A stretch of DNA of 64,000 bases from Candidatus Marinacidobacterales bacterium (GCA_965219415.1 CBDCNP010000002.1:480001-544000); one strand, 5' to 3'. Positions 12,081-21,080 are shown, counted from the first letter of the stretch. The notes: generated by a model from the letters alone, not told the origin. Numbers and translations: made by a program.

Positions 12081-12156
12081 AGTGGCACGCAGTATACACT
12101 CTCAATGAACTGCCCTATACTCCTCAACAAATTTGCCGGGGATGAAGGAGAAAGAG

Positions 12157-13257
12157 ATGAAGAAAAAAGTCGAGACCGAAGTGAGTCAAGGATTCAGCCG
12201 TCGAAACCTCTTTCGCGCAGTTCTTGGAGGAACGGTGGCTTCCGCCGTCTCGTCACGCGCTTCGAGTGTCGAAGCGGCTCGTCCAACCCTTGAGGCCCTC
12301 GAGGCCGACGTCGGCGACCAAGGTATGTACGCGGTGATCACGGGGTCCGGCTCCGCCATGGCCGATCCCGAGCGAGGCAACGCCAGTGCCGCGGTGGTCG
12401 TAGATGGAACCGTTCTACAGTTCGACTTCGGCCGTAAAACGATGGACAACTTGATGCGCGTCGGGATCAATCCAATAAACATCGACTACATTTTCTTCAC
12501 CCACCTTCATTTCGACCACATCGCTACCTACGACTATTTCATCATCTCGTCTTGGATCGCGGGGCGTAGGACTCCCTACAAGGTGTTCGGACCTCCGGGC
12601 ACCGAGGCGATGTCGAACGGGGCGCTCCATCACATGCACGAAATGGACGTCCGATTCGTAAAATATATCGTCGACACCTGGCCCGACATTGCCGAGAAGC
12701 CTCCGGTGGCGGAGCCGCCCGTCGAAGTCACCGACGCCGAACCGGGTCTGGTGGTCGAGACCGACGATTTCAAGGTCACTTCGACCGCAACTCCGCACCT
12801 CAGTCCCCCCAACATGTACAGCAGAGGTTATCGGGTCGACTCCAAATACGGCTCGGTCGTCATCAGCGGAGACACTGCCCCTTCCGAGAATATGGTTGGG
12901 CTTGCCAAGGACGCCGACATCCTCATTCATGAGTGCGTCATCCCCGACTACGGTATGACGACAGCCGGCAAGTTCAGCCGCAAGGAATTCCACGTGAAGG
13001 AAACGAAGAATCAACGGACTGGCCACACCTCGCCGACCGGCCTGGGGAAACTGGCCGCACAGGCCGGGGTGAAGAAACTGGTGGCCTACCACCTCGCTCC
13101 TTACACCAGCGTGCCGGCGGCGGTGGAAATGTCCGAGAAGTACACCGGTCCCAACCCGGGTCCGGAGATCTGGTCGAAGTACATCCACGCCATGAAGAAC
13201 CAGTACTCGGGCCCGGTCATCCTGGCGGAAGACGCGATGGTGATCAAAGTTTCGTAA
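12157..13257 (+). CDS. Tat-signal MBL-fold metallo-hydrolase, RNase Z-like
   Basis: AAGGAG RBS, SRRNLF twin-arginine signal, THLHFDH, SGDT, HEC, GHTSP. Confidence 0.9.
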   Translation: MKKKVETEVSQGFSRRNLFRAVLGGTVASAVSSRASSVEAARPTLEALEADVGDQGMYAVITGSGSAMADPERGNASAAVVVDGTVLQFDFGRKTMDNLMRVGINPINIDYIFFTHLHFDHIATYDYFIISSWIAGRRTPYKVFGPPGTEAMSNGALHHMHEMDVRFVKYIVDTWPDIAEKPPVAEPPVEVTDAEPGLVVETDDFKVTSTATPHLSPPNMYSRGYRVDSKYGSVVISGDTAPSENMVGLAKDADILIHECVIPDYGMTTAGKFSRKEFHVKETKNQRTGHTSPTGLGKLAAQAGVKKLVAYHLAPYTSVPAAVEMSEKYTGPNPGPEIWSKYIHAMKNQYSGPVILAEDAMVIKVS

Positions 13258-13269
13258 GGTGGTCCCGTC

Positions 13270-14298
13270 ATGAAGGGCTTCACACGAAGAGGGTTCTTCG
13301 GCGGCCTCCTGGTAGCGCCCGCCGCCTTCGGCCTCAAAAGCGCCGAAGCCGCGAAGAGCGTGGACTTGGAACGCCCCGGCATGCGGGCGTTGATCACCGG
13401 CTCCGGATCGGCGCTCATCGATCCACTCCGCGGCAACGCGAGTGTGGCGGTGATCGTCGACGGAACGGTCCTTCAGTTCGACTTCGGCCGTCGCGCAATG
13501 GACAACCTCGCGCTGGCGGGGATCAATCCGGTGAACGTGGATTACATTTTTTTCACGCACCTCCACTTCGACCACATCGCGACGTACGACTACCACGTCA
13601 TCTCCAGCTGGATCGCAGGACGTCAGACTCCGATTGAAGTTTATGGACCCCTGGGTACGACAGAGATGTCGGACAAAGCCATCTATGGAATGCACGCGGT
13701 GGACATCGTTTTCGTCGAGAAGCTCTTGGCCGGGTGGCCGAAGCGGCTCGATCGTAGACCGAAAGATAAGCCGCCGATCGATGTGCACGATGTCGGGGCC
13801 GGGGTGGTGACGGAAACGGATACCTTCAAGGTCACGGCGGTGGAAACGCCGCACTATCGATCGATGGGCGTTCGAAGCCTCGGCTATCGAGTCGACTCCG
13901 AGCACGGATCGATCGTCGTGAGCGGAGACACCGCACCATCGGACGCGCTCGCCGAGCTCGCCCAAGGAGCAGACCTCCTCATTCATGAATGTGTGATTCC
14001 CGATCCCGGCATGACGAAGTCGGGTAAGTTCGCGGAAAAGCCTCCCGAAGACGAACCGCCCGAGGGGCACACGTCTCCCACTGAGCTCGGGCAACTAGCG
14101 CAACGTGCGGGTGTGAAGAAGTTAGTCGCCACCCACCTTGCTCCGTATACGAGCGTCGACGCCGCGGTAGAAATGTCGAGCATGTACCTCGGCCCTCGGC
14201 TGGGCGAGGAAATCTGGGGAGAATTCGTACACGCGATGAAGCAGCAATACGAGGGCCCCGTCGTCTTGGCCGAGGACGGGATGGTGTTCGAAATTTAA
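13270..14298 (+). CDS. Tat-signal MBL-fold metallo-hydrolase, RNase Z-like, tandem paralog
   Basis: TRRGFF twin-arginine signal, THLHFDH, SGDT, HEC, GHTSP. Confidence 0.9.
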   Translation: MKGFTRRGFFGGLLVAPAAFGLKSAEAAKSVDLERPGMRALITGSGSALIDPLRGNASVAVIVDGTVLQFDFGRRAMDNLALAGINPVNVDYIFFTHLHFDHIATYDYHVISSWIAGRQTPIEVYGPLGTTEMSDKAIYGMHAVDIVFVEKLLAGWPKRLDRRPKDKPPIDVHDVGAGVVTETDTFKVTAVETPHYRSMGVRSLGYRVDSEHGSIVVSGDTAPSDALAELAQGADLLIHECVIPDPGMTKSGKFAEKPPEDEPPEGHTSPTELGQLAQRAGVKKLVATHLAPYTSVDAAVEMSSMYLGPRLGEEIWGEFVHAMKQQYEGPVVLAEDGMVFEI

Positions 14299-14306
14299 AT
14301 GCAGTG

Positions 14307-15975
14307 CTAGGGTTTGTAGAGTTCCGCGATGTGGATGTCGGCTTCTTGAGTCAGGCGTGAAAAAACGATCTTCTTTCCGTCCGGAGACCATCCTCCGTTT
14401 AGAACAACTCCGACTTTGGCGTCGGTGAGCCGCTGCGGTTGTCCCAAGGCCCTAGGCAACTCTCCAGGTGCGTTAGGCGGAGCCAACCGCAGCAAGAAGA
14501 GCGCTTGGCCGGTAAGCTCGTGGTTGCTCGTACCCGGTTTCCCGTCATCGCAATAGCTTACCGCGCGACCGTCCGGGGCAACATCTAGCTCCCAGTGATC
14601 GCCGCGATAGAGTGTCACCTCCTGGCCACTCTTCAGGTCGGCAACTACCATTTCCCGTGTTGTGGGCGCGTCTTCCCCAAGACGCGTGTAGACGACGTGT
14701 CGGCTGTCTCGGTACCAATCGAAACGAACGGCGCGCGGAAAATGGGACCGGGCGTTTTGGCCGTCCCGGTCCACGACCCAGAGAACCTCACCTTGATCTG
14801 CCGCGCCGATGTAGCCGATGGCCTTGCCGTCGGGAGACCATCGGGGGGCTAGCTCCCGATAGGTTTGCTCTTCCGTCCCTCGGATCAGGATCCTGTGATC
14901 CGTCAGGGGGCGCGGGGCGCCACCTTCGACACTTGTGACCCACACTTGGAAATCCCCGCCACGGTTCGAAAGAAAGACGATCTCGCGTCCGTCTGGCGAC
15001 CAATCAGGCTGGATATCCATGGCGGGTTGATCGGTAAGTTGCCGTTCCGAGCTCGTGTCCAGATCGAGGAGCCAGATCTCATTGTTGCCCGTGCGGTCGG
15101 ACTGATAGACGATCTTTCTCCCGTCCGGGGAGACGCGGGGAAAAAAGTTGTCGCGGGTAGTCAAGGTCAAACGTTGTTCCGCTTCGCCTTCCAACCCACG
15201 TAAGTATAGGCCCGACTCGGGGTTAAACCGCGCGTAGGCGAGAACGGCCTGGCGTGAAACGACCGGATCACCCTCACTTTCAACTCCCGAGGTCAACTGG
15301 CGTATGCGACCCGACGCGATCTCCATCTCCCATAGGTTTCTTGTTCCGGACCTCATGGACGCGAAGAGAATGTGTTCGCCGTCGGGTGACCAGGAGGGCT
15401 GAAAGTCCCAGTCCCGACCGCCGAGAAGCAAGCGCGCCTCGCCGCCGCTCCCAGGCAATACGAACAGGTTTACGGTCCCTTTCGCCCGGCGGGTAAACGC
15501 AATCCGTTCCCCATCGAAGGACCACGAAGCATGTAGGTCATCGCCGCCGGGTGGCGGCTTGGTCATTTGCGTTTCTTCTGCCGTCGAGGAGGTTGATCTT
15601 CCACACCGCCATTTCCCCGCTCGGTCCAAAGCGGGAGAAAAGCAGCTGCTGACCGTCGGGCGACCAGGGCATGGGGCCGAGCGGGTGATTCAGGGGCACC
15701 CCGTTGGTGTCCGCCAACTCTCGTTCGGGGCCTCCCAAGGGCGGAATTAAATAGACTTTCGGCCCGGCGCCTCTGTCCGATAGAAACGCGATGTACCTCC
15801 CGTCGGGGGACCAGCGCGGGGAGACCTCATCCGCGGCGCTGTGGGTGAGCTGAACCGGCTCTCCCCCAGCTACCGGTTTCACGAAGATGTCGGTGCTCCC
15901 GGCCTGAGGACGCTCGTAGGCGATTAAGCTCCCGTCAGGAGACCACGTCGGGTACCGCTCCACGCCAACGAAGCT
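14307..15975 (-). pseudogene. TolB/PD40 beta-propeller C-terminal part of wHTH-propeller gene B, separated from its N-terminus at 18550-19040; extra frameshift near 15589
   Basis: Repeated PxWSPDG motifs. Inverted paralog of 16767-18434. Begins at AGC TTC GTT GGC GTG (SFVGV) with no start of its own. Confidence 0.85.
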
Positions 15976-16192
15976 CCATGATCGAAGCATCTGTAACGGA
16001 GAAACTCGAACGGCTCGAGGCCAAGCGCCTTGGCAAAGTCAAGAATCCGAGAAAGAGCCTCGTAGACGCCGACACGTCACCGGGAGCGCGCGCAATACCC
16101 GCTCCTGTGAGGCGCTTCGTGTGGGCGCGCGACCAGGGTCAATGCACCTTTGAGAGCGGGGACGGTAGACGATGTCCCGAGCGCCTAGGACT
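15974..16192 (+). pseudogene. Displaced internal fragment of the DUF222-like/HNH gene at 19101-20051
   Basis: Encodes SMIEASVTEKLERLEAKRLG...RAIPAPVRRFVWARDQGQCTFESGDGRRCPERLGL, which fits the gap between GADLA and QFHHDDP in that gene. Confidence 0.88.
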
Positions 16193-16293
16193 AACGAAGA
16201 GCTCTTCAACGATCCCCCCTAGTAATGAAAATGAGAGTCTTTGCGGTCTGGCGGGCGTAATGCTACACTTTTGCCTCTTTCCCGGAGGAATCG

Positions 16294-18434
16294 ATGCCAA
16301 CCTCATTCCGCATCGGCGAATGGTTGGTTGACCCTCGCGCCGACCGAATCGTCAGCCCCGACGAGACCGTACACATCGAACCCCGCGCCATGCAGGCGCT
16401 GGTCTATTTGGCCGAGCATGCCGGCGAAGTGGTCACCCGCGATGAAATCCTGCGAGCGGTTTGGGAAGAAACGTTCGTCGCCGACGAGGTGCTGACTAGT
16501 GCCATCGCAAAGCTGCGTCGAGCGTTCGGCGACGAAGGCACGAACCCGACCTTCATTCAGACGGTACCCAAGAAAGGCCCTAACGTAACGATCGTTCCCA
16601 TTCGTCGAGGAATTGGCGTTGCTCGGTCCTGCTGCTGCTCCGCCGGCGAAACGGAAGCATTCAGTCGATAGCGGTCGCGGTGTTCGTAGTCGGTGCCGGG
16701 ACTTATCTCTTCACCAACTCCACTCCGCCTGACCCGACGCCGTCTCTGAACGTCAAGCTCTTCACCAGCTCCGTTGGCGTGGAGCGGTACCCGACGTGGT
16801 CTCCTGACGGGAGCTTAATCGCCTACGAGCGTCCACAGGCTGGCAACACGGACATTTTCGTGAAACCGGCAAGTGGGGGAGAGCCGATTCAGCTCACCAG
16901 CAGCCCGGCGGATGAGATCTCTCCGCGCTGGTCCCCCGACGGGAAGTACATCGCGTTTCTATCGGACCGAGGTCCCGGGACCAAAGTTTATGTGATCCCA
17001 CCTCTGGGAGGCGCCGAACGAGAGTTGGTGGACACCAACCGGGTGCCCCTGAATCACCCACTGGGCCCCATGCCTTGGTCGCCTGACGGTCAGCACCTCC
17101 TGTTCTCACGCTTGGGACCGAGCGGAGAAATGGAGGTGTGGAAGGTCAACCTCTCGACGGCAGAAGAAACACAAATGACCGAACCGCCCCCCGGCGGCGA
17201 AGACCTGCACGCATCGTGGTCGTTCGATGGGGAAAGGATTGCGTTCGCCCGCCGGGGGAAGGGGACCGTAAACCTGTTCGTATTGCCTGGGAGTGGCGGC
17301 GAGGCCCGTTTACTTCTCGGCGGTCGGGACTGGGCCTATAAGCCTGCCTGGGCACCGGACAACCAACACATTGTCTTTGGGGCCTTGACGTCCGGAGCTA
17401 AAGATCTGTGGGAGGTGGAAGTTGCGTCGGGTCGCCTACGCCAGTTGACCTCGGGAGTTGCAAGTGAGGATGATCCGGTCGCTTCACGCCAGGGCTCTCT
17501 CGCATACGCGCGCTTTAGCGAAGAGTCGGGCCTGTACTTACGTGGGTTGGAAGGCGAAGCGGAACAACGTTTGACCTTGACTACCCGCGACAACTTTTTT
17601 CCCCGCGTCTCCCCTGACGGCAAGAGAATCGCCTATCAGTCCGACCGCACGGGCAACAATGAAATCTGGCTCTTCGACCTGGACACGAGCTCGGAACGGC
17701 AACTTACCGATCAACCCGCCATGGATATCCAGCCTGATTGGTCACCCGATGGACGCGAGATCGTCTTTCTTTCGAACCGGGACGGGGACTTCCACGTGTG
17801 GGTCATGAATGTAGATCACGTAGTCCCGCGCCGCTTGACGGACCACAGCATCTTGATCCGAGGGACGGCAGAGGAAACCTATCGGGAGATAGCCCCCCGA
17901 TGGTCTCCGGACGGCAAGGCCATCGGCTACATCGGCGCGGCCGAGCAGGGTGAGACTCTTTGGGTCGTGGACCAGGACGGCGAAAATGCCCGGTCCTATT
18001 TTCCGGACGCCGTTCGTTTCGATTGGTATCGAGACAGCCGACACGTAGTCTACACGCGTGTGGCGGAAGGCGATTCGGCAACACGGGAAATGGTAGTCGC
18101 CAATTTGGAGAGCGGCAAAGAGTTCATACTCTACCGCGGCGATCACTGGGAGCTAGACGTCGCCCCGGAGGGTAGCGCCGTAAGCTATTGCGACGACTTG
18201 AGACAGGGTGGGAGCGCCCCCGAGCTTTCCGGTCAAGCGCTCTTCCTGCTGCGATTGGCTCCGCCTAACGCACCTGGAGAGTTGCCTAGGGCCTTGGGAC
18301 AACCGCAGCGGCTCACCGACGCCAAAGTCGGAGTTGTTCTAAACGGAGGATGGTCTCCGGACGGAAAGAAGATCGTTTTTTCACGCATGACTCAAGAAGC
18401 CGACATCCACATCGCGGAACTTTACCAACCCTAG
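16294..18434 (+). pseudogene. CadC/OmpR-type winged-helix + TM + TolB/PD40 beta-propeller protein (gene A), disrupted by an internal 96-bp inversion at 16577-16672
   Basis: 16294-16576 is the wHTH (IEPRAMQALVYLAEHAGEVVTRDEIL...FIQTVPKKG). 16680-18434 is TM plus propeller. The linker is the reverse complement of the linker seen in paralog B. Confidence 0.85.
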
Positions 18435-18549
18435 CACTGCATTTAGATCTCAATCACCATCCGTGGCCCCCCCTTAGTAAGCGAAAATGAGACTCTTTGC
18501 GGTCCGGCGGGCGTGATGCTACACCTTCGCATCCTTCCCGGAGGAATCG

Positions 18550-19040
18550 ATGCCAACCACCTACCGCATCGGCGAATGGTTGGTTGACCCTCGCGCCGAT
18601 CGAATCGTCAGCCCCGACGAGACCGTACACATCGAACCCCGCGCCATGCAGGCGCTGGTCTATTTGGCCGAGCATGCCGGCGAAGTCGCCGCGATGAAAT
18701 CCTGCGAGCGGTGTGGGAAGAAACGTTCGTCACCGACGAAGTGCTGACTAGTGCCATCGCAAAGCTGCGCCGGGCGTTCGGCGACGAAGGCACGAATCCG
18801 ACCTTCATCCAAACGGTACCCAAGAAGGGTTATCGATTGAATGCTTCCGTTTCGCCGGAGGAGCCACAGCCGGGCCAAGCAACACCCGTTTCAGAAACGG
18901 GGGCCAGACAACTTCCTCGACGAACGCGCACGATCGTTGCGTTGGGGGTCGCAGTGTTCGCAGTCGGTGCTGGCACCTATCTCTTCGTCGACTCAGCTCC
19001 GCCCGACGTAACGCCGCCTCTCAACATTAAGGCCTTCACC
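18550..19040 (+). pseudogene. N-terminal wHTH + linker + TM part of gene B; frameshift near 18688, truncated after NIKAFT
   Basis: Direct repeat of about 16214-16766 including the upstream region. Homology ends at TTCACC (19040); the continuation lies at 15975 on the minus strand. Confidence 0.85.
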
Positions 19041-19100
19041 TTCCACCAAGGCGAGATTTTTTTCTCACGTCCTTCGCCTGGACCTGCCAAGTTGCGCGAG

Positions 19101-20051
19101 CTAGAAAACGGCTCGGGGTGGGGTGCGGTCCTTCGTTGCGAGTTGCACAGCAGCACGGAGGGGCGGCGATTCATGAACTCTGTCCGGAAAGAGTGGAAAC
19201 GACGGCTTCGGTTCACCGACCCGGTCGGCGGCACGGCGGTACTGCTCCATCTTGCCTTTGCCGTAGTCTATCTCCGCCATGTAGAGATTGCGGACCACAT
19301 AGAAGTCTGACATTGTCGGCACTTCGATCGCCGCCGAGCGCGTGGGGATCGTCGTGATGGAACTGCAGGCGAGGTCGGCACCCGGCATGAGGGCCGCGAG
19401 CCGTTGGAGCTTGTCCTGAAGGTCAGCACTCGCGGTGAACTGCACGCGGTACCGCGAAGGTGCCAGCGGCTCGACGACCGGCGGCTTGTCAGCCGTTTCG
19501 GGAGCCGGGGCCCGCTCAGGTTCAGGGGCTGGACTCTTTCCGGACGGAGTACCTTCGGCGCCTGACGTACGGAGTTCGCTTGCCGGCTTCTGTCGCCGCT
19601 TCGGAAGCTTCCGGATGGAGGGCGAGACATCCGGTTTCGGCGCAATCTCCGCCGCCAGCACCAGGAGCTCGCGTTTGGTCTTGTGGGTTGCTCGAGCCAA
19701 GAGCTCCTCGCAATTGGTGTCGGTAAGATGCGGTGCCAGCACCGTGATGCCGCTCAAGTGAAGACGCCCATCGTCGAGCATCGTCAGAAGCACCGGATGT
19801 CGGCGCGACGCCCGTGCGGTGGCTATCCGTAGGAAGGCTTCTGCCTCGGACAAGTGCAACACGTCGACGCAATATTTAAACATCGATGACGAAGCTTCAC
19901 GGGCATACAGTCGGCGTGCATCGACTTCGGCGATATGCGCAACGAGAACCGACTCCACACGTCGCGACTGTTTCAAAACGCTCGACAGTCGGCCAAGAAG
20001 CTCGTCATCCGACAGTGGGGAAAGCGATTTCAATTTGTCTTTTTTGTTCAT
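19101..20051 (-). pseudogene. DUF222-like/HNH endonuclease-family gene with a 217-bp internal excision at 19367-19368
   Basis: LSDDELL...VAHIAEVDARRLY...SSMFKYC...LSEAEAFLRI...EPLAPSRYRVQFTAS; the HNH motif FHHDDPHALGGDRSADNVRLLC lies in the shifted frame. Confidence 0.85.
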
Positions 20052-20345
20052 GCGCCTGTTATAGCATGGACTTTTTTGACGCTCTGTGCCCGCGCGTATT
20101 GAACGCGAATGCGTCGAGACACTTCGAAGTCTATCCAAGCAAACGAGCGTGCCTGTCGTTTCCTTATCGCACGTACAGGCCCACTCCAGATCGTACCTGC
20201 GGTTTTTTTCATATCGCCGCGAATAAGCTGTCAAGAAAAAAGTGAATTATTTTTCTCAGCGATCTCCCCTGTTTTGGGAAGGTGCTCTTAATCCCCCCCT
20301 CCACACGCCGTCCCACACCGTGTACAATGGCGGTCGGTTGCTTGG

Positions 20346-21080
20346 ATGAAGAAAACAGACTCCCCAACCGCAGTCGTTACCGGTGGAAGCAAGGGCATCG
20401 GGGCAGATATCGCGGAGCGGCTTCTCGATAGAGATTACCGCGTCGTCAATCTGTCCAACATCCCCCCGAACTGGAAACATGACCGGCTCGAGACGATCGA
20501 GGTCGACCTATCGGATCTGGACGCAACGCGTGAGACCGCTGCCGCCGTTGCGGCGGTTCAGGACGTCAAGGTTTTCGTGCATAACGCGGGAGTGATTCGG
20601 CCGGCGCTCCTCGAGGCCGTCAAGCAAGAAGACCTCGATCACTTGGTCAGCTTGCACCTCGGTGCTGCGATAGCCCTCGCGCAGCAATTCGTGCCGTCCA
20701 TGCGCACACAAAAGTTCGGACGCATCGTGCTCATTTCCTCTCGCGCCGCTCTCGGTTTGCCCACTCGCACCGCCTATTCTGCCACCAAGGCAGGAATGAT
20801 CGGCTTGACGCGAACCTGGGCTTTGGAGCTCGCGAAGGACGGCATCACCGTGAACGCGATCGCCCCGGGGCCGATCGAGACCGATCAGTTCCACGAGCTC
20901 ATCCCACCCGACAGCCCGAAGAAACCACAGATCGCCGCGAGCGTCCCCGTGGGACGTCTAGGAACACCGGCCGACATCGGAAGGGTCGTCGACTTCCTTG
21001 TCGATCCGGAAAGTAGCTTTATCACCGGTCAGACGCTGTACGTCTGTGGCGGTGTGAGTCTCGGGGGCCTGACACTTTGA
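20346..21080 (+). CDS. SDR-family oxidoreductase (FabG-like)
   Basis: TGGSKGIG, HNAG, YSATK, NAIAPG motifs. Confidence 0.93.
   Translation: MKKTDSPTAVVTGGSKGIGADIAERLLDRDYRVVNLSNIPPNWKHDRLETIEVDLSDLDATRETAAAVAAVQDVKVFVHNAGVIRPALLEAVKQEDLDHLVSLHLGAAIALAQQFVPSMRTQKFGRIVLISSRAALGLPTRTAYSATKAGMIGLTRTWALELAKDGITVNAIAPGPIETDQFHELIPPDSPKKPQIAASVPVGRLGTPADIGRVVDFLVDPESSFITGQTLYVCGGVSLGGLTL

What the first reader, a model, noticed from the sequence alone, without database searches (positions are those of the whole stretch)
14296..20051. Scrambled 5.7-kb locus: genes cut and rejoined without loss, with three breakpoints directly after CT
Seen: (a) The HNH gene reads GAC CTC GCCT|GCAG TTC at 19367-19368. 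The missing 217 bp sit 3 kb away on the opposite strand at 15976-16192. Reinserting them gives GCC TCC ATG...GGA CTG CAG TTC CAT CAC, in frame. (b) Gene B ends at TTC ACC (19040), and its continuation AGC TTC GTT GGC GTG starts at 15975 on the minus strand, colinear with paralog A with no base gained or lost. With S1=14296-15975, S2=15976-16192, S3=16193-18445, S4=18446-19040, S5=19041-19366 and S6=19367 onward, the implied ancestral order is S1, rc(S4), rc(S3), S5, rc(S2), S6. That is two tandem genes plus an intact HNH gene, and it needs about three inversions. The three checkable breaks all follow CT (aagCT, gcCT, gaCT). Known: IS110-family (IS621) recombinases use a CT core; graph misassembly needs long overlaps, not 2 bp. 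Inference: this is either a trans-acting site-specific inversion system or local shattering with end-joining, possibly cut by the HNH protein itself. No recombinase lies in the window, and the S4|S5 junction lacks the AG a reciprocal exchange would predict.
Basis: partly seen in the sequence, partly recalled or inferred. Interest (0 to 1): 0.85.

Follow-up and report, generated by a model that had tools for sequence, protein, structure and literature searches.

The report
Scrambled, decaying gene island, real not misassembled
A dispensable 6-kb gene island in a large, insertion-sequence-rich bacterial genome has been cut at seven points within 3.4 kb and rejoined in a new order almost without loss, while an unscrambled version persists in other samples; it looks like a mutational scar from break-and-rejoin repair rather than a working DNA-inversion switch.

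Summary
The 217-bp piece at 15976-16192 is the missing middle of the broken HNH-like gene. Gene B (18550-19040) continues at 15975 on the minus strand with no gap against paralog A.

- a 50-bp spacer, 19041-19090
- a 96-bp block inside gene A, 16577-16672

That makes 7 breakpoints and at least 5 inversions.

Independent contigs of public runs bridge two window junctions (X4). In X5 and X1 they also show an unscrambled form, so this is a real polymorphism with only two forms seen.

The island is absent from a same-genus genome, and all three of its genes carry further frameshifts.

The junctions show 0-2 bp of microhomology, and two of them have 2-bp duplications. There is no shared site motif and no recombinase in the window. 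IS110 upstream regions match the junctions no better than random 28-mers do. The genome encodes Ku, an ATP-dependent ligase and a LigD primase-polymerase.

Best reading: one multi-break event repaired by end joining. This mechanism is inferred, not shown. Interest is moderate.

The parts
14299..20345 (.). The whole variable island, lying between the stop of a metallo-beta-lactamase-fold gene (14296-14298) and the start of a short-chain dehydrogenase gene (20346).
   Evidence: In same-genus genome G001 the two flanking genes are 12 bp apart and there is no island. G002 has 1.5 kb of other DNA plus an 89-nt B-like remnant.
14307..15975 (-). Block X: the C-terminal part of gene B (PD40 beta-propeller). 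It carries a 1-nt insertion near 15589.
   Evidence: 88% identical to gene A. Colinear with A across the 19040/15975 join. The split ORFs are listed. X4 and X5 contigs covering 15450-15937 show no differences.
15976..16192 (+). Block P: the 217-bp middle of the HNH-like gene, inverted and moved 3.2 kb away.
   Evidence: 85-91% identical to the same stretch of the full-length matching paralogs. It restores the reading frame when placed between 19367 and 19366.
16193..19040 (+). Block Q: the region upstream of gene A, gene A itself (wHTH 16294-16576, TM and PD40 propeller 16680-18434), the A-B spacer, and the N-terminal part of gene B (18550-19040, with 4 nt missing at 18689).
   Evidence: Pfam Trans_reg_C and PD40, ORFs, alignment.
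16577..16672 (.). A 96-bp block inside gene A, inverted relative to paralog B, the G002 remnant and the contigs of X5 and X1. It is flanked by GC on both sides.
   Evidence: Reverse-complement matches to 18831-18886 and 18913-18947. Joint 16576/16672 on opposite strands in X5 (depth 8) and X1 (depth 3.4). The outgroup is colinear with B.
19041..19090 (.). Block T: a 50-bp spacer that is not part of the HNH repeat. Its ends are ambiguous by 2-3 nt.
   Evidence: HNH homology starts at 19094. An X1 contig of 328 nt reads rc(16193-16374), rc(19040-19088), then 19092 onward. X5 shows the 19088>16193 joint at depth 9.28.
19091..19366 (-). Block R': the 3' part of the HNH-like gene, with a 2-bp deletion after 19288 that shifts the frame before the last catalytic-motif residues.
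   Evidence: Alignment to two paralogs, translation.
19367..20265 (-). Block Y: the 5' part of the HNH-like gene (start codon near 20051) plus about 215 bp of upstream sequence that belongs to the repeat unit.
   Evidence: 86-91% identical to six other near-full-length copies.

Best explanation
The window carries the derived haplotype of a dispensable, already decaying 6-kb island.

The unscrambled island had three genes on the minus strand: a copy of a multi-copy HNH-like gene, then a 50-bp spacer, then two tandem paralogs (A, B) encoding a wHTH-TM-PD40 propeller protein.

In one lineage a 3.4-kb stretch was broken at seven points. The pieces were 217 bp, 2848 bp, 50 bp and 276 bp, plus a 96-bp piece inside A. 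They were religated in new order and orientation by illegitimate, homology-independent end joining. The most likely agent is the genome's own Ku, ligase and LigD-polymerase system, acting in one event or one short burst.

Ends were joined flush or on 1-2 bp of microhomology. At two breaks a 2-nt stagger was filled in on both ends, leaving the AA and GC duplications.

The result has no function. It finishes off A, B and the HNH copy as genes and survives because the island is not needed.

Shown:
- the scrambled order
- near-complete conservation of sequence
- the existence of both forms in reads
- absence of the island from a congener
- the junction sequences
- the presence of NHEJ genes

Inferred:
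- that it was a single event
- that double-strand breaks and NHEJ, rather than replication errors, made it
- the cause of the breaks, which remains unknown
For: Reality of the window form:
- A 547-nt X4 contig (depth 2.9, 0 differences) covers 18657-19203 and so bridges the 19040/19041 and 19090/19091 junctions.
- An X5 contig of 384 nt stops exactly at 19040. This is what a branch between two forms gives.

The unscrambled form in two other studies:
- X1 and X5 contigs join the HNH 3' end to T and T to 16193.
- They also carry the 96-bp block in the other orientation.
- X1 joins 18752(+) to 15353(-). That is a plain 910-bp deletion only if B is colinear.

Polarity:
- The gene frames are restored in the unscrambled order.
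- The G002 remnant is colinear with B and lies on the minus strand.

One event rather than many:
- The reversal distance is 4, yet only 5 breakpoints are used. Every break is therefore shared by two rearranged adjacencies.
- A replicative copy-choice route would need five switches that land exactly on each other's ends.
- No intermediate adjacency appears among the joints of 4 runs.

Background rate:
- There are 0 local reversed matches in a 60-HSP colinear chain (188,855 aligned bases) within a 400-kb stretch of G001.
- No other HNH copy has an inverted piece. The other copies show only internal deletions or truncations.

Junctions:
- Microhomology per junction is 2, 0, 1, 2, 2, 2, 2 bp. Five of 7 junctions have at least 2 bp, which 0.8% of 20,000 random sets reach.

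Repair machinery:
- Ku lies beside an ATP-dependent ligase at C3:5249-5251 kb.
- A LigD Prim-Pol domain lies at C3:2727050.
Against: - Junctions 15975/15976, 16192/16193 and 19366/19367 of the window form were not shown as bridged.
- X4 may be the very sample the genome was assembled from, so it may not be independent.
- The unscrambled form is reconstructed from three or four short joints. Its joins at 15975/19040, and at both ends of P, were not seen for this locus. Joints at the P ends are confounded by paralogs.
- By summed length the microhomology is only marginal: 5.2% of random sets reach the observed sum.
- End joining of seven breaks with no base lost is unusually clean.
- Nothing identifies what made the breaks.
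- In my two literature searches I found no precedent for a multi-fragment end-joining scramble in bacteria. I read only the listings and abstracts.
Confidence: 0.5

Rival explanations
1. Serial replication errors. Several independent template-switch or short-inverted-repeat events each inverted one block in place, and they accumulated in a locus under no selection.
For: - Each small block is bounded by 2-bp inverted or self-complementary repeats: TT..AA around T and GC..GC around the 96-bp block.
- Template switching is described as making short inverted copies (abstracts of PMC5453318 and 10.1101/2021.11.26.470150) and as acting at quasipalindromes in E. coli (abstract of PMC7202029), all from the listing.
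- An imperfect 7-11 nt inverted repeat containing AACGAAG would flank block Q in the unscrambled order.
- The island is decaying anyway, by frameshifts and deletions.
Against: - Four successive inversions would have to reuse the same five breakpoints to the base.
- The 2.85-kb block Q is long for short-range switching.
- No intermediate forms appear in 4 runs.
- No local inversion was found in the 188,855 aligned bases compared with G001. Five independent hits in 3.4 kb between near-identical haplotypes would therefore be extraordinary.
- The 7-nt repeat was not used as a crossover point, because both copies keep their original neighbours.
Confidence: 0.2
2. A trans-acting site-specific recombinase shuffles the blocks at short core sites, as in a shufflon. 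Candidates are an IS110-type bridge recombinase with a CT core or a serine invertase with a 2-bp crossover. The two forms would be interconverting states.
For: - Three block ends finish in CT. The first two steps of one 4-step path are formally conservative exchanges at CT/AG cores.
- Breakpoints are reused.
- Both forms appear to coexist in run X5.
- The genome holds 53 IS110-type DEDD matches, 17 serine and 13 tyrosine recombinase matches.
- IS621 uses a conserved CT core and can be programmed to invert DNA (passages of PMC11208160 read).
Against: - The T|Q break and the two gene-A breaks have other dinucleotides (TT/AA, GC, GG), and at the T|R' break CT sits one base away. Two junctions carry 2-bp duplications, which a conservative exchange does not make.
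- No repeat longer than chance is shared by the boundaries.
- No recombinase gene lies in the 64-kb window.
- Junction matches to IS110 upstream regions (8-11 nt) equal those of random controls (8-13 nt).
- No IS end, which would serve as donor, is present in the locus.
- Only two arrangements are seen.
- All genes involved are pseudogenes, so there is nothing to switch.
- X1 carries the unscrambled order with its own 910-bp deletion, as expected of separate decaying lineages.
Confidence: 0.07
3. An assembly or library artefact. Chimeric or fold-back reads, or a tangled graph between the 88%-identical paralogs A and B and the roughly 13 HNH copies, produced a false order.
For: - The locus sits among repeats.
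- The genome is a 3-contig assembly with 8.45% estimated contamination.
- Three of the five outer junctions were not shown as bridged by independent contigs.
Against: - Logan contigs are built independently with short words. One bridges two junctions in X4.
- Runs of study P4 (X4, X6) show no joint contradicting the window at this organism's depth. The exceptions are joints explained by paralogs. For example, the 16193/19365 joint matches the copy at C3:3288902.
- A second study's run (X5) has a contig that ends exactly at a window breakpoint.
- A misassembly between paralogs would break at long shared stretches, not at 0-2 bp.
- It would not conserve every base or produce a 50-bp and a 96-bp in-place inversion.
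Confidence: 0.08

Closest known systems
Chromothripsis / chromoanagenesis (eukaryotes)
   Same: - Breakpoints are clustered.
- Pieces are rebuilt in seemingly random order and orientation.
- Joins carry little or no homology.
- Inversions can be balanced.

The definitions come from the abstracts of PMC4683855, PMC8427664 and PMC10879144 in the listing.
   Different: - The scale is kilobases with 50-2848 bp pieces, not megabases.
- No fragment is lost.
- It lies in a bacterial chromosome.
- The cause is unknown.
- That it was a single event is inferred from breakpoint reuse, not observed.
Bacterial Ku-LigD non-homologous end joining
   Same: - The genome has Ku, an adjacent ATP-dependent ligase and a LigD Prim-Pol domain.
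- Joins have 0-2 bp microhomology, plus 2-nt duplications of the kind produced when short overhangs are filled in. That behaviour is recalled by me and was not looked up.
- The pathway is described in the abstracts of PMC5124664 and PMC6379672 (listing).
   Different: Known outcomes are repair of single breaks, small indels, and capture of foreign DNA. A seven-break reshuffle did not turn up. No test here shows that these proteins acted on the locus.
Shufflons and invertons (site-specific multi-inversion systems; recalled, not looked up)
   Same: Several adjacent segments are inverted singly and in groups using the same boundaries.
   Different: - There are no conserved inverted crossover sites.
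- There is no nearby recombinase.
- Only two states are seen.
- There are 2-bp duplications at two joins.
- The genes affected are dead.
IS110/IS621 bridge-RNA recombination
   Same: The CT dinucleotide occurs at three ends. The system can invert DNA when programmed (PMC11208160, passages read).
   Different: - It needs an 11-bp target and a donor, both matched to the RNA's two loops.
- No IS end lies in the locus.
- CT is absent from three breaks and one base off at a fourth.
- Complementarity is no better than random.
Short-range replication template switching
   Same: It produces in-place inverted patches bounded by very short repeats (abstracts).
   Different: It usually spans tens of bases. 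It does not explain the moved 217-bp piece, the 2.85-kb block, or the exact reuse of breakpoints.

Membership tests
Site-specific DNA inversion system (shufflon / inverton) | A conserved crossover site in inverted orientation at every segment boundary. | tested here: not met
   The inverted-repeat scan of 14200-20400 found only the A/B paralogy and propeller-blade repeats. The 14 break-end sequences share no motif beyond CT at three ends.
Site-specific DNA inversion system (shufflon / inverton) | A dedicated recombinase gene at or near the locus. | tested here: not met
   None of the 53 IS110-DEDD, 17 resolvase or 13 phage-integrase matches in the genome falls within C3:480001-544000.
Site-specific DNA inversion system (shufflon / inverton) | Many permutations coexisting in a population. 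| tested here: inconclusive
   Only the window order and one unscrambled order appear among the joints of 4 runs. Contigs drop rare variants, so rare forms cannot be excluded.
IS110-family bridge recombination | The same core dinucleotide (CT in IS621) at both recombining sites. | tested here: not met
   CT or AG sits directly at 3 of 5 outer breaks. The T|R' break has it one base away, the T|Q break has TT/AA, and the gene-A block has GC and GG. The core rule is from PMC11208160.
IS110-family bridge recombination | Guide RNA loops complementary to the flanks of target and donor. | tested here: not met
   This was a coarse test. The longest exact match of each of 14 junction 28-mers to the 53 IS110 upstream regions (480 nt each) was 8-11 nt, against 8-13 nt for 60 random window 28-mers. 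Loop structure was not modelled.
End-joining complex rearrangement (chromothripsis-like) | Clustered breakpoints with fragments rejoined in changed order and orientation. | tested here: met
   There are 7 breakpoints between 15975 and 19367. The order changes from -Q -T +R' -P to +P +Q +T +R'.
End-joining complex rearrangement (chromothripsis-like) | Joins with no or very short homology, and small insertions. | tested here: met
   Microhomology is 2, 0, 1, 2, 2, 2, 2 bp. The 2-bp AA and GC duplications are inferred.
End-joining complex rearrangement (chromothripsis-like) | All breaks made in one event. | not testable with these tools
   Only indirect evidence is available: a single cycle in the breakpoint graph, no intermediates, and no other local inversions in the 188,855 aligned bases compared with G001.
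End-joining complex rearrangement (chromothripsis-like) | Loss of some fragments (typical of chromothripsis). | tested here: not met
   No base is missing at the gene-B join or the two HNH joins.
HNH endonuclease (Pfam PF01844) | A score over Pfam's gathering cut-off. | tested here: not met
   The intact paralog scores 12-14 bits (E 0.24 and 0.046) against a cut-off of 21.4. It has no NCBIfam hit. By language-model features, its nearest Atlas clusters score 0.98, and 35-50% of their members carry PF01844. I therefore call it 'HNH-like', not a proven member.
OmpR/CadC-type winged-helix regulator fused to a PD40 beta-propeller | A Trans_reg_C domain followed by PD40 repeats. | tested here: met
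   PF00486 scores E 1.6e-17 on 16294-16575. PF07676 scores E 2.7e-63 on 16680-18434.

The most novel reading that the evidence does not exclude
This is a natural, kilobase-scale counterpart of chromothripsis in a bacterium. A single burst of seven double-strand breaks within 3.4 kb was repaired by Ku/LigD end joining, with every fragment retained down to 50 bp. Both the shattered and the intact haplotype are still segregating in natural populations. That would show that prokaryotic NHEJ can reassemble many small fragments and can create complex balanced rearrangements in one step.
Probability: 0.3. Interest if true: 0.7.

Novelty: new variant of a known kind. Interest (0 to 1): 0.5.

Why it matters
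If the single-event reading is right, this is a rare natural record of how bacterial end joining handles many simultaneous breaks. The 'before' and 'after' haplotypes are both available in public reads, so the junction chemistry can be read base by base.

It is also a caution for annotation. Three gene fragments here, the chimeric ORF at 15978-16331 and the apparent 'missing' HNH segment are products of a scramble, not of separate genes.

There is no sign of a regulated switch or of any function, so the value lies in understanding mutation mechanisms rather than physiology.

Tried and rejected
Strain-level relatives in public collections:
- A scan of metagenome contigs with the gene-A protein found 476 relatives, the best at 33% identity and none close.
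- A scan of genome contigs found a best identity of 28-31%. The top rows are titled Candidatus Poribacteria MAGs. That is only a hint about the organism's lineage.
- No second copy of the locus exists in the assembly.

IS110 test:
- The boundaries of one IS110-type family were mapped in 10 full-length copies.
- They have terminal inverted repeats, and their flanks show no common target and no CT rule that I could see.
- Complementarity to the junctions was at the random level.

Genome-wide search for other in-place inversions among repeats:
- The first script timed out.
- The second found 0, but its E-value cut-off also misses the known 96-bp block, so it is uninformative for blocks under about 75 nt.
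- A direct test of 115 gap pairs gave 25 hits. Twenty-four are one 1.43-kb insertion sequence with ~105-bp terminal inverted repeats inserted in both orientations. One is a 2.2-kb repeat pair that matches itself both ways.
- The A/B positive control is again not recoverable, because its right flank is only 93 nt.

Common nuclease motif at the seven breaks: none was seen by eye in the 20-nt ends.

Parts of the stretch without cover in X1 (bins 15508-15758 and 18771-19021) agree with the 910-bp deletion joint, but by themselves they prove nothing.

Literature: the chromothripsis and NHEJ searches gave no bacterial precedent in the rows I looked at (12 of 252 and 10 of 190 listed). This is not a claim that none exists. 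Supplementary files were not consulted.

Full report
WHAT IS THERE

The window is C3:480001-544000 of an 8.05-Mb, three-contig genome without Ns.

Between a metallo-beta-lactamase-fold gene (stop at 14296-14298) and a short-chain dehydrogenase gene (start at 20346) lie 6.05 kb holding pieces of three genes. Two are paralogs, A and B, 88.5% identical once rejoined. They encode an OmpR/CadC-type winged helix, a membrane span and a PD40 beta-propeller. The third is one copy of a repeated gene that I call HNH-like.

I name the blocks as follows:
- X: up to 15975
- P: 15976-16192
- Q: 16193-19040
- T: 19041-19090
- R': 19091-19366
- Y: from 19367

CHECK OF THE OBSERVATION

The HNH-like gene:
- Joining rc(Y), P and rc(R') by coordinates gives one open frame across both joins.
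- The genome holds about 13 loci of this repeat at 84-94% identity. In the full-length ones the three pieces are colinear and abut without a missing base.
- P is 85-91% identical to its full-length paralog matches, like its neighbours. It is therefore the locus's own missing piece, not a stray from another copy.

Gene B:
- Rejoined as 18550-19040 plus rc(14304-15975), it aligns with A over 2138 columns with four gaps. None is at the join.

TWO MORE INVERTED BLOCKS

- Inside A, 16577-16672 is the reverse complement of the matching stretch of B.

IS IT REAL?

Nine public runs from five studies hold parts of the stretch. I laid Logan contigs of four of them.

Support for the window form:
- In X4 a 547-nt contig with no differences covers 18657-19203, bridging Q|T and T|R'.
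- In X5, from another study, a contig identical to the window ends exactly at 19040, as at a branch point.

Contigs that show a different order:
- In X1 a 328-nt contig reads rc(16193-16374), then rc(19040-19088), then 19092 onward. That is HNH 3' end, then T, then the upstream region of A.
- X5 has the same T-to-16193 joint at depth 9.28, against about 13 for contigs identical to the window.
- Both runs have the 16576/16672 joint on opposite strands, meaning the 96-bp block is in B-like orientation.
- X1 joins 18752(+) to 15353(-). That is a simple 910-bp deletion only if B is colinear.

Joints near 15975/19369 and 16193/19365 come from HNH paralogs. The second matches the copy at C3:3288902, which has the needed base change.

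My reading: the scrambled order exists in reads of at least one and probably two studies. An unscrambled order exists in two studies. No third order was reported.

CONTEXT

- A same-genus genome, G001, has the two flanking genes 12 bp apart with no island.
- G002 has 1.5 kb of other DNA plus an 89-nt remnant of a B-like gene. It lies on the strand expected from the unscrambled order and is colinear with B across the right edge of the 96-bp block.
- The island is therefore accessory, and the B-like arrangement is ancestral.

Its genes are decaying independently of the scramble:
- B lacks 4 nt at 18689 and has an extra nt near 15589. Both are confirmed by contigs without differences.
- The HNH copy lacks 2 nt after 19288.
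- The X1 strain has its own deletion in B.
- Most other HNH copies carry internal deletions or truncations, and none has an inversion.
- Two paralogs are intact, at 389 and 382 aa.

GEOMETRY

From the unscrambled order (-Q -T +R' -P) to the window order (+P +Q +T +R') the minimum is four inversions. With the block in A that makes five.

Yet only five outer breakpoints are used. In the breakpoint graph they form one cycle, so each break end is reused exactly.
- Independent random inversions would not do that.
- A copy-choice route would need five switches landing on each other's ends.
- Cutting at five points and rejoining gives it for free.
- So would a recombinase acting on fixed sites.

JUNCTIONS

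This amounts to 2-bp microhomology at two window junctions.

Per junction the microhomology is 2, 0, 1, 2, 2, 2, 2 bp:
- Five of 7 junctions have at least 2 bp, which 0.8% of 20,000 random breakpoint sets reach.
- The summed length is matched by 5.2% of random sets.

Two breaks seem to have left 2-bp duplications:
- The T-to-Q joint in X1 and X5 has two letters that fit either side. The window has AA both after T and before Q.
- Flipping 16577-16672 leaves A two bases too long compared with B and G002, at a GC that stands on both sides of the block.

Flush joins, 1-2 bp overlaps and small fill-in duplications are what end joining gives. A conservative recombinase would leave no duplications and would need one common core.

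TESTS OF THE RECOMBINASE IDEA

- No shared repeat occurs at the boundaries.
- No IS110, serine or tyrosine recombinase lies in the window, although the genome has 53, 17 and 13 matches.
- IS621 needs a CT core in both partners plus guide pairing to target and donor (passages).
- Here CT is absent from the T|Q break and both gene-A breaks, and one base off at T|R'. No IS end lies in the locus.
- Junction matches to the 53 IS110 upstream regions are 8-11 nt, against 8-13 nt for random 28-mers.

MACHINERY AND BACKGROUND RATE

- Ku lies next to an ATP-dependent ligase, and a LigD Prim-Pol domain lies elsewhere in the genome.
- A 400-kb stretch of G001 was compared with the genome. The 60-HSP colinear chain (188,855 aligned bases, 82-93% identity) contains no local reversed match. 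Sensitivity is roughly 55 nt and longer.
- Five inversions in 3.4 kb between haplotypes that are about 99% alike (0-3 differences per contig piece) are thus a local burst.

VERDICT

The locus is a real, derived, haplotype-specific scramble of a dispensable, decaying island.

I put about 0.85 on it being real. I put 0.5 on a single multi-break event repaired by end joining, 0.2 on serial replication errors, 0.07 on a site-specific system and 0.08 on an artefact.

It is not a working switch. As a possible natural record of bacterial end joining reassembling many small fragments, with both haplotypes at hand, it deserves moderate interest.

Names such as shufflon, and the fill-in behaviour of LigD, are recalled and were not looked up. 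The papers cited were seen as listings and abstracts, apart from the passages of PMC11208160.

Noticed in passing
G000 genome-wide, e.g. C3:2961551-2963242: Insertion sequences have expanded strongly. There are 53 IS110-type DEDD transposase matches, 31 of them with a near-identical score of 47.2-47.3 bits. Ten full-length copies of one 1.69-kb family are 98-100% identical, have ~15-bp terminal inverted repeats, and show no obvious common target.
   Followed up: partly
G000 C3:657800-659233 and at least 10 other places: A 1.43-kb insertion sequence has ~105-bp terminal inverted repeats and split reading frames that look transposase-like by eye (not scanned against Pfam). In a repeat scan it mimics an 'in-place inversion' because copies lie in both orientations.
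   Followed up: partly
G000: C1:98580-99416, C1:646346-647507, C1:878602-879094, C1:1834887-1835205, C3:577978-579290, C3:888237-888347, C3:4095263-4095508: Most copies of the HNH-like repeat are degraded by internal deletions of 120-520 bp, several with a few bases of overlap at the join. Only two of about 13 copies keep a full open frame, and another full-length copy (C1:149873-151214) is frameshifted. Contigs of the runs also show copies in which the deleted part is replaced by 16 or 36 other letters (table 5c).
   Followed up: partly
window 12133-14298: Two tandem metallo-beta-lactamase-fold paralogs lie just upstream of the island; the DNA aligns at 65-67% identity. In G001 the second one is followed after 12 bp by the dehydrogenase gene, as in an operon that the island has split.
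   Followed up: partly
L091:2648-3592 (G000 C3:4112047-4112991): The intact HNH-like paralog also lies next to a gene whose product, by its WSPDG-type repeats, looks like a PD40-type beta-propeller protein (judged by eye, not scanned). This may be chance, given how common such genes are here.
   Followed up: no
G000 C3:400396-405015 versus G001 C1:3015737-3020341: A 4.6-kb segment, 76% identical, is inverted and displaced by about 20 kb between the two same-genus genomes. It is the only strand change among the long matches (1.5 kb and over) within the syntenic stretch of C3.
   Followed up: no
window 15978-16331: A chimeric 117-aa open frame starts inside the displaced HNH piece and runs into the region upstream of gene A. 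It is a by-product of the scramble and would be a false gene call.
   Followed up: no
L010:11278-12343 (G002): At the same site G002 carries a different insert, with overlapping 329-aa and 152-aa frames that look like a broken membrane protein. The gap between the two flanking genes seems to be a hot spot for accessory DNA in this genus.
   Followed up: no
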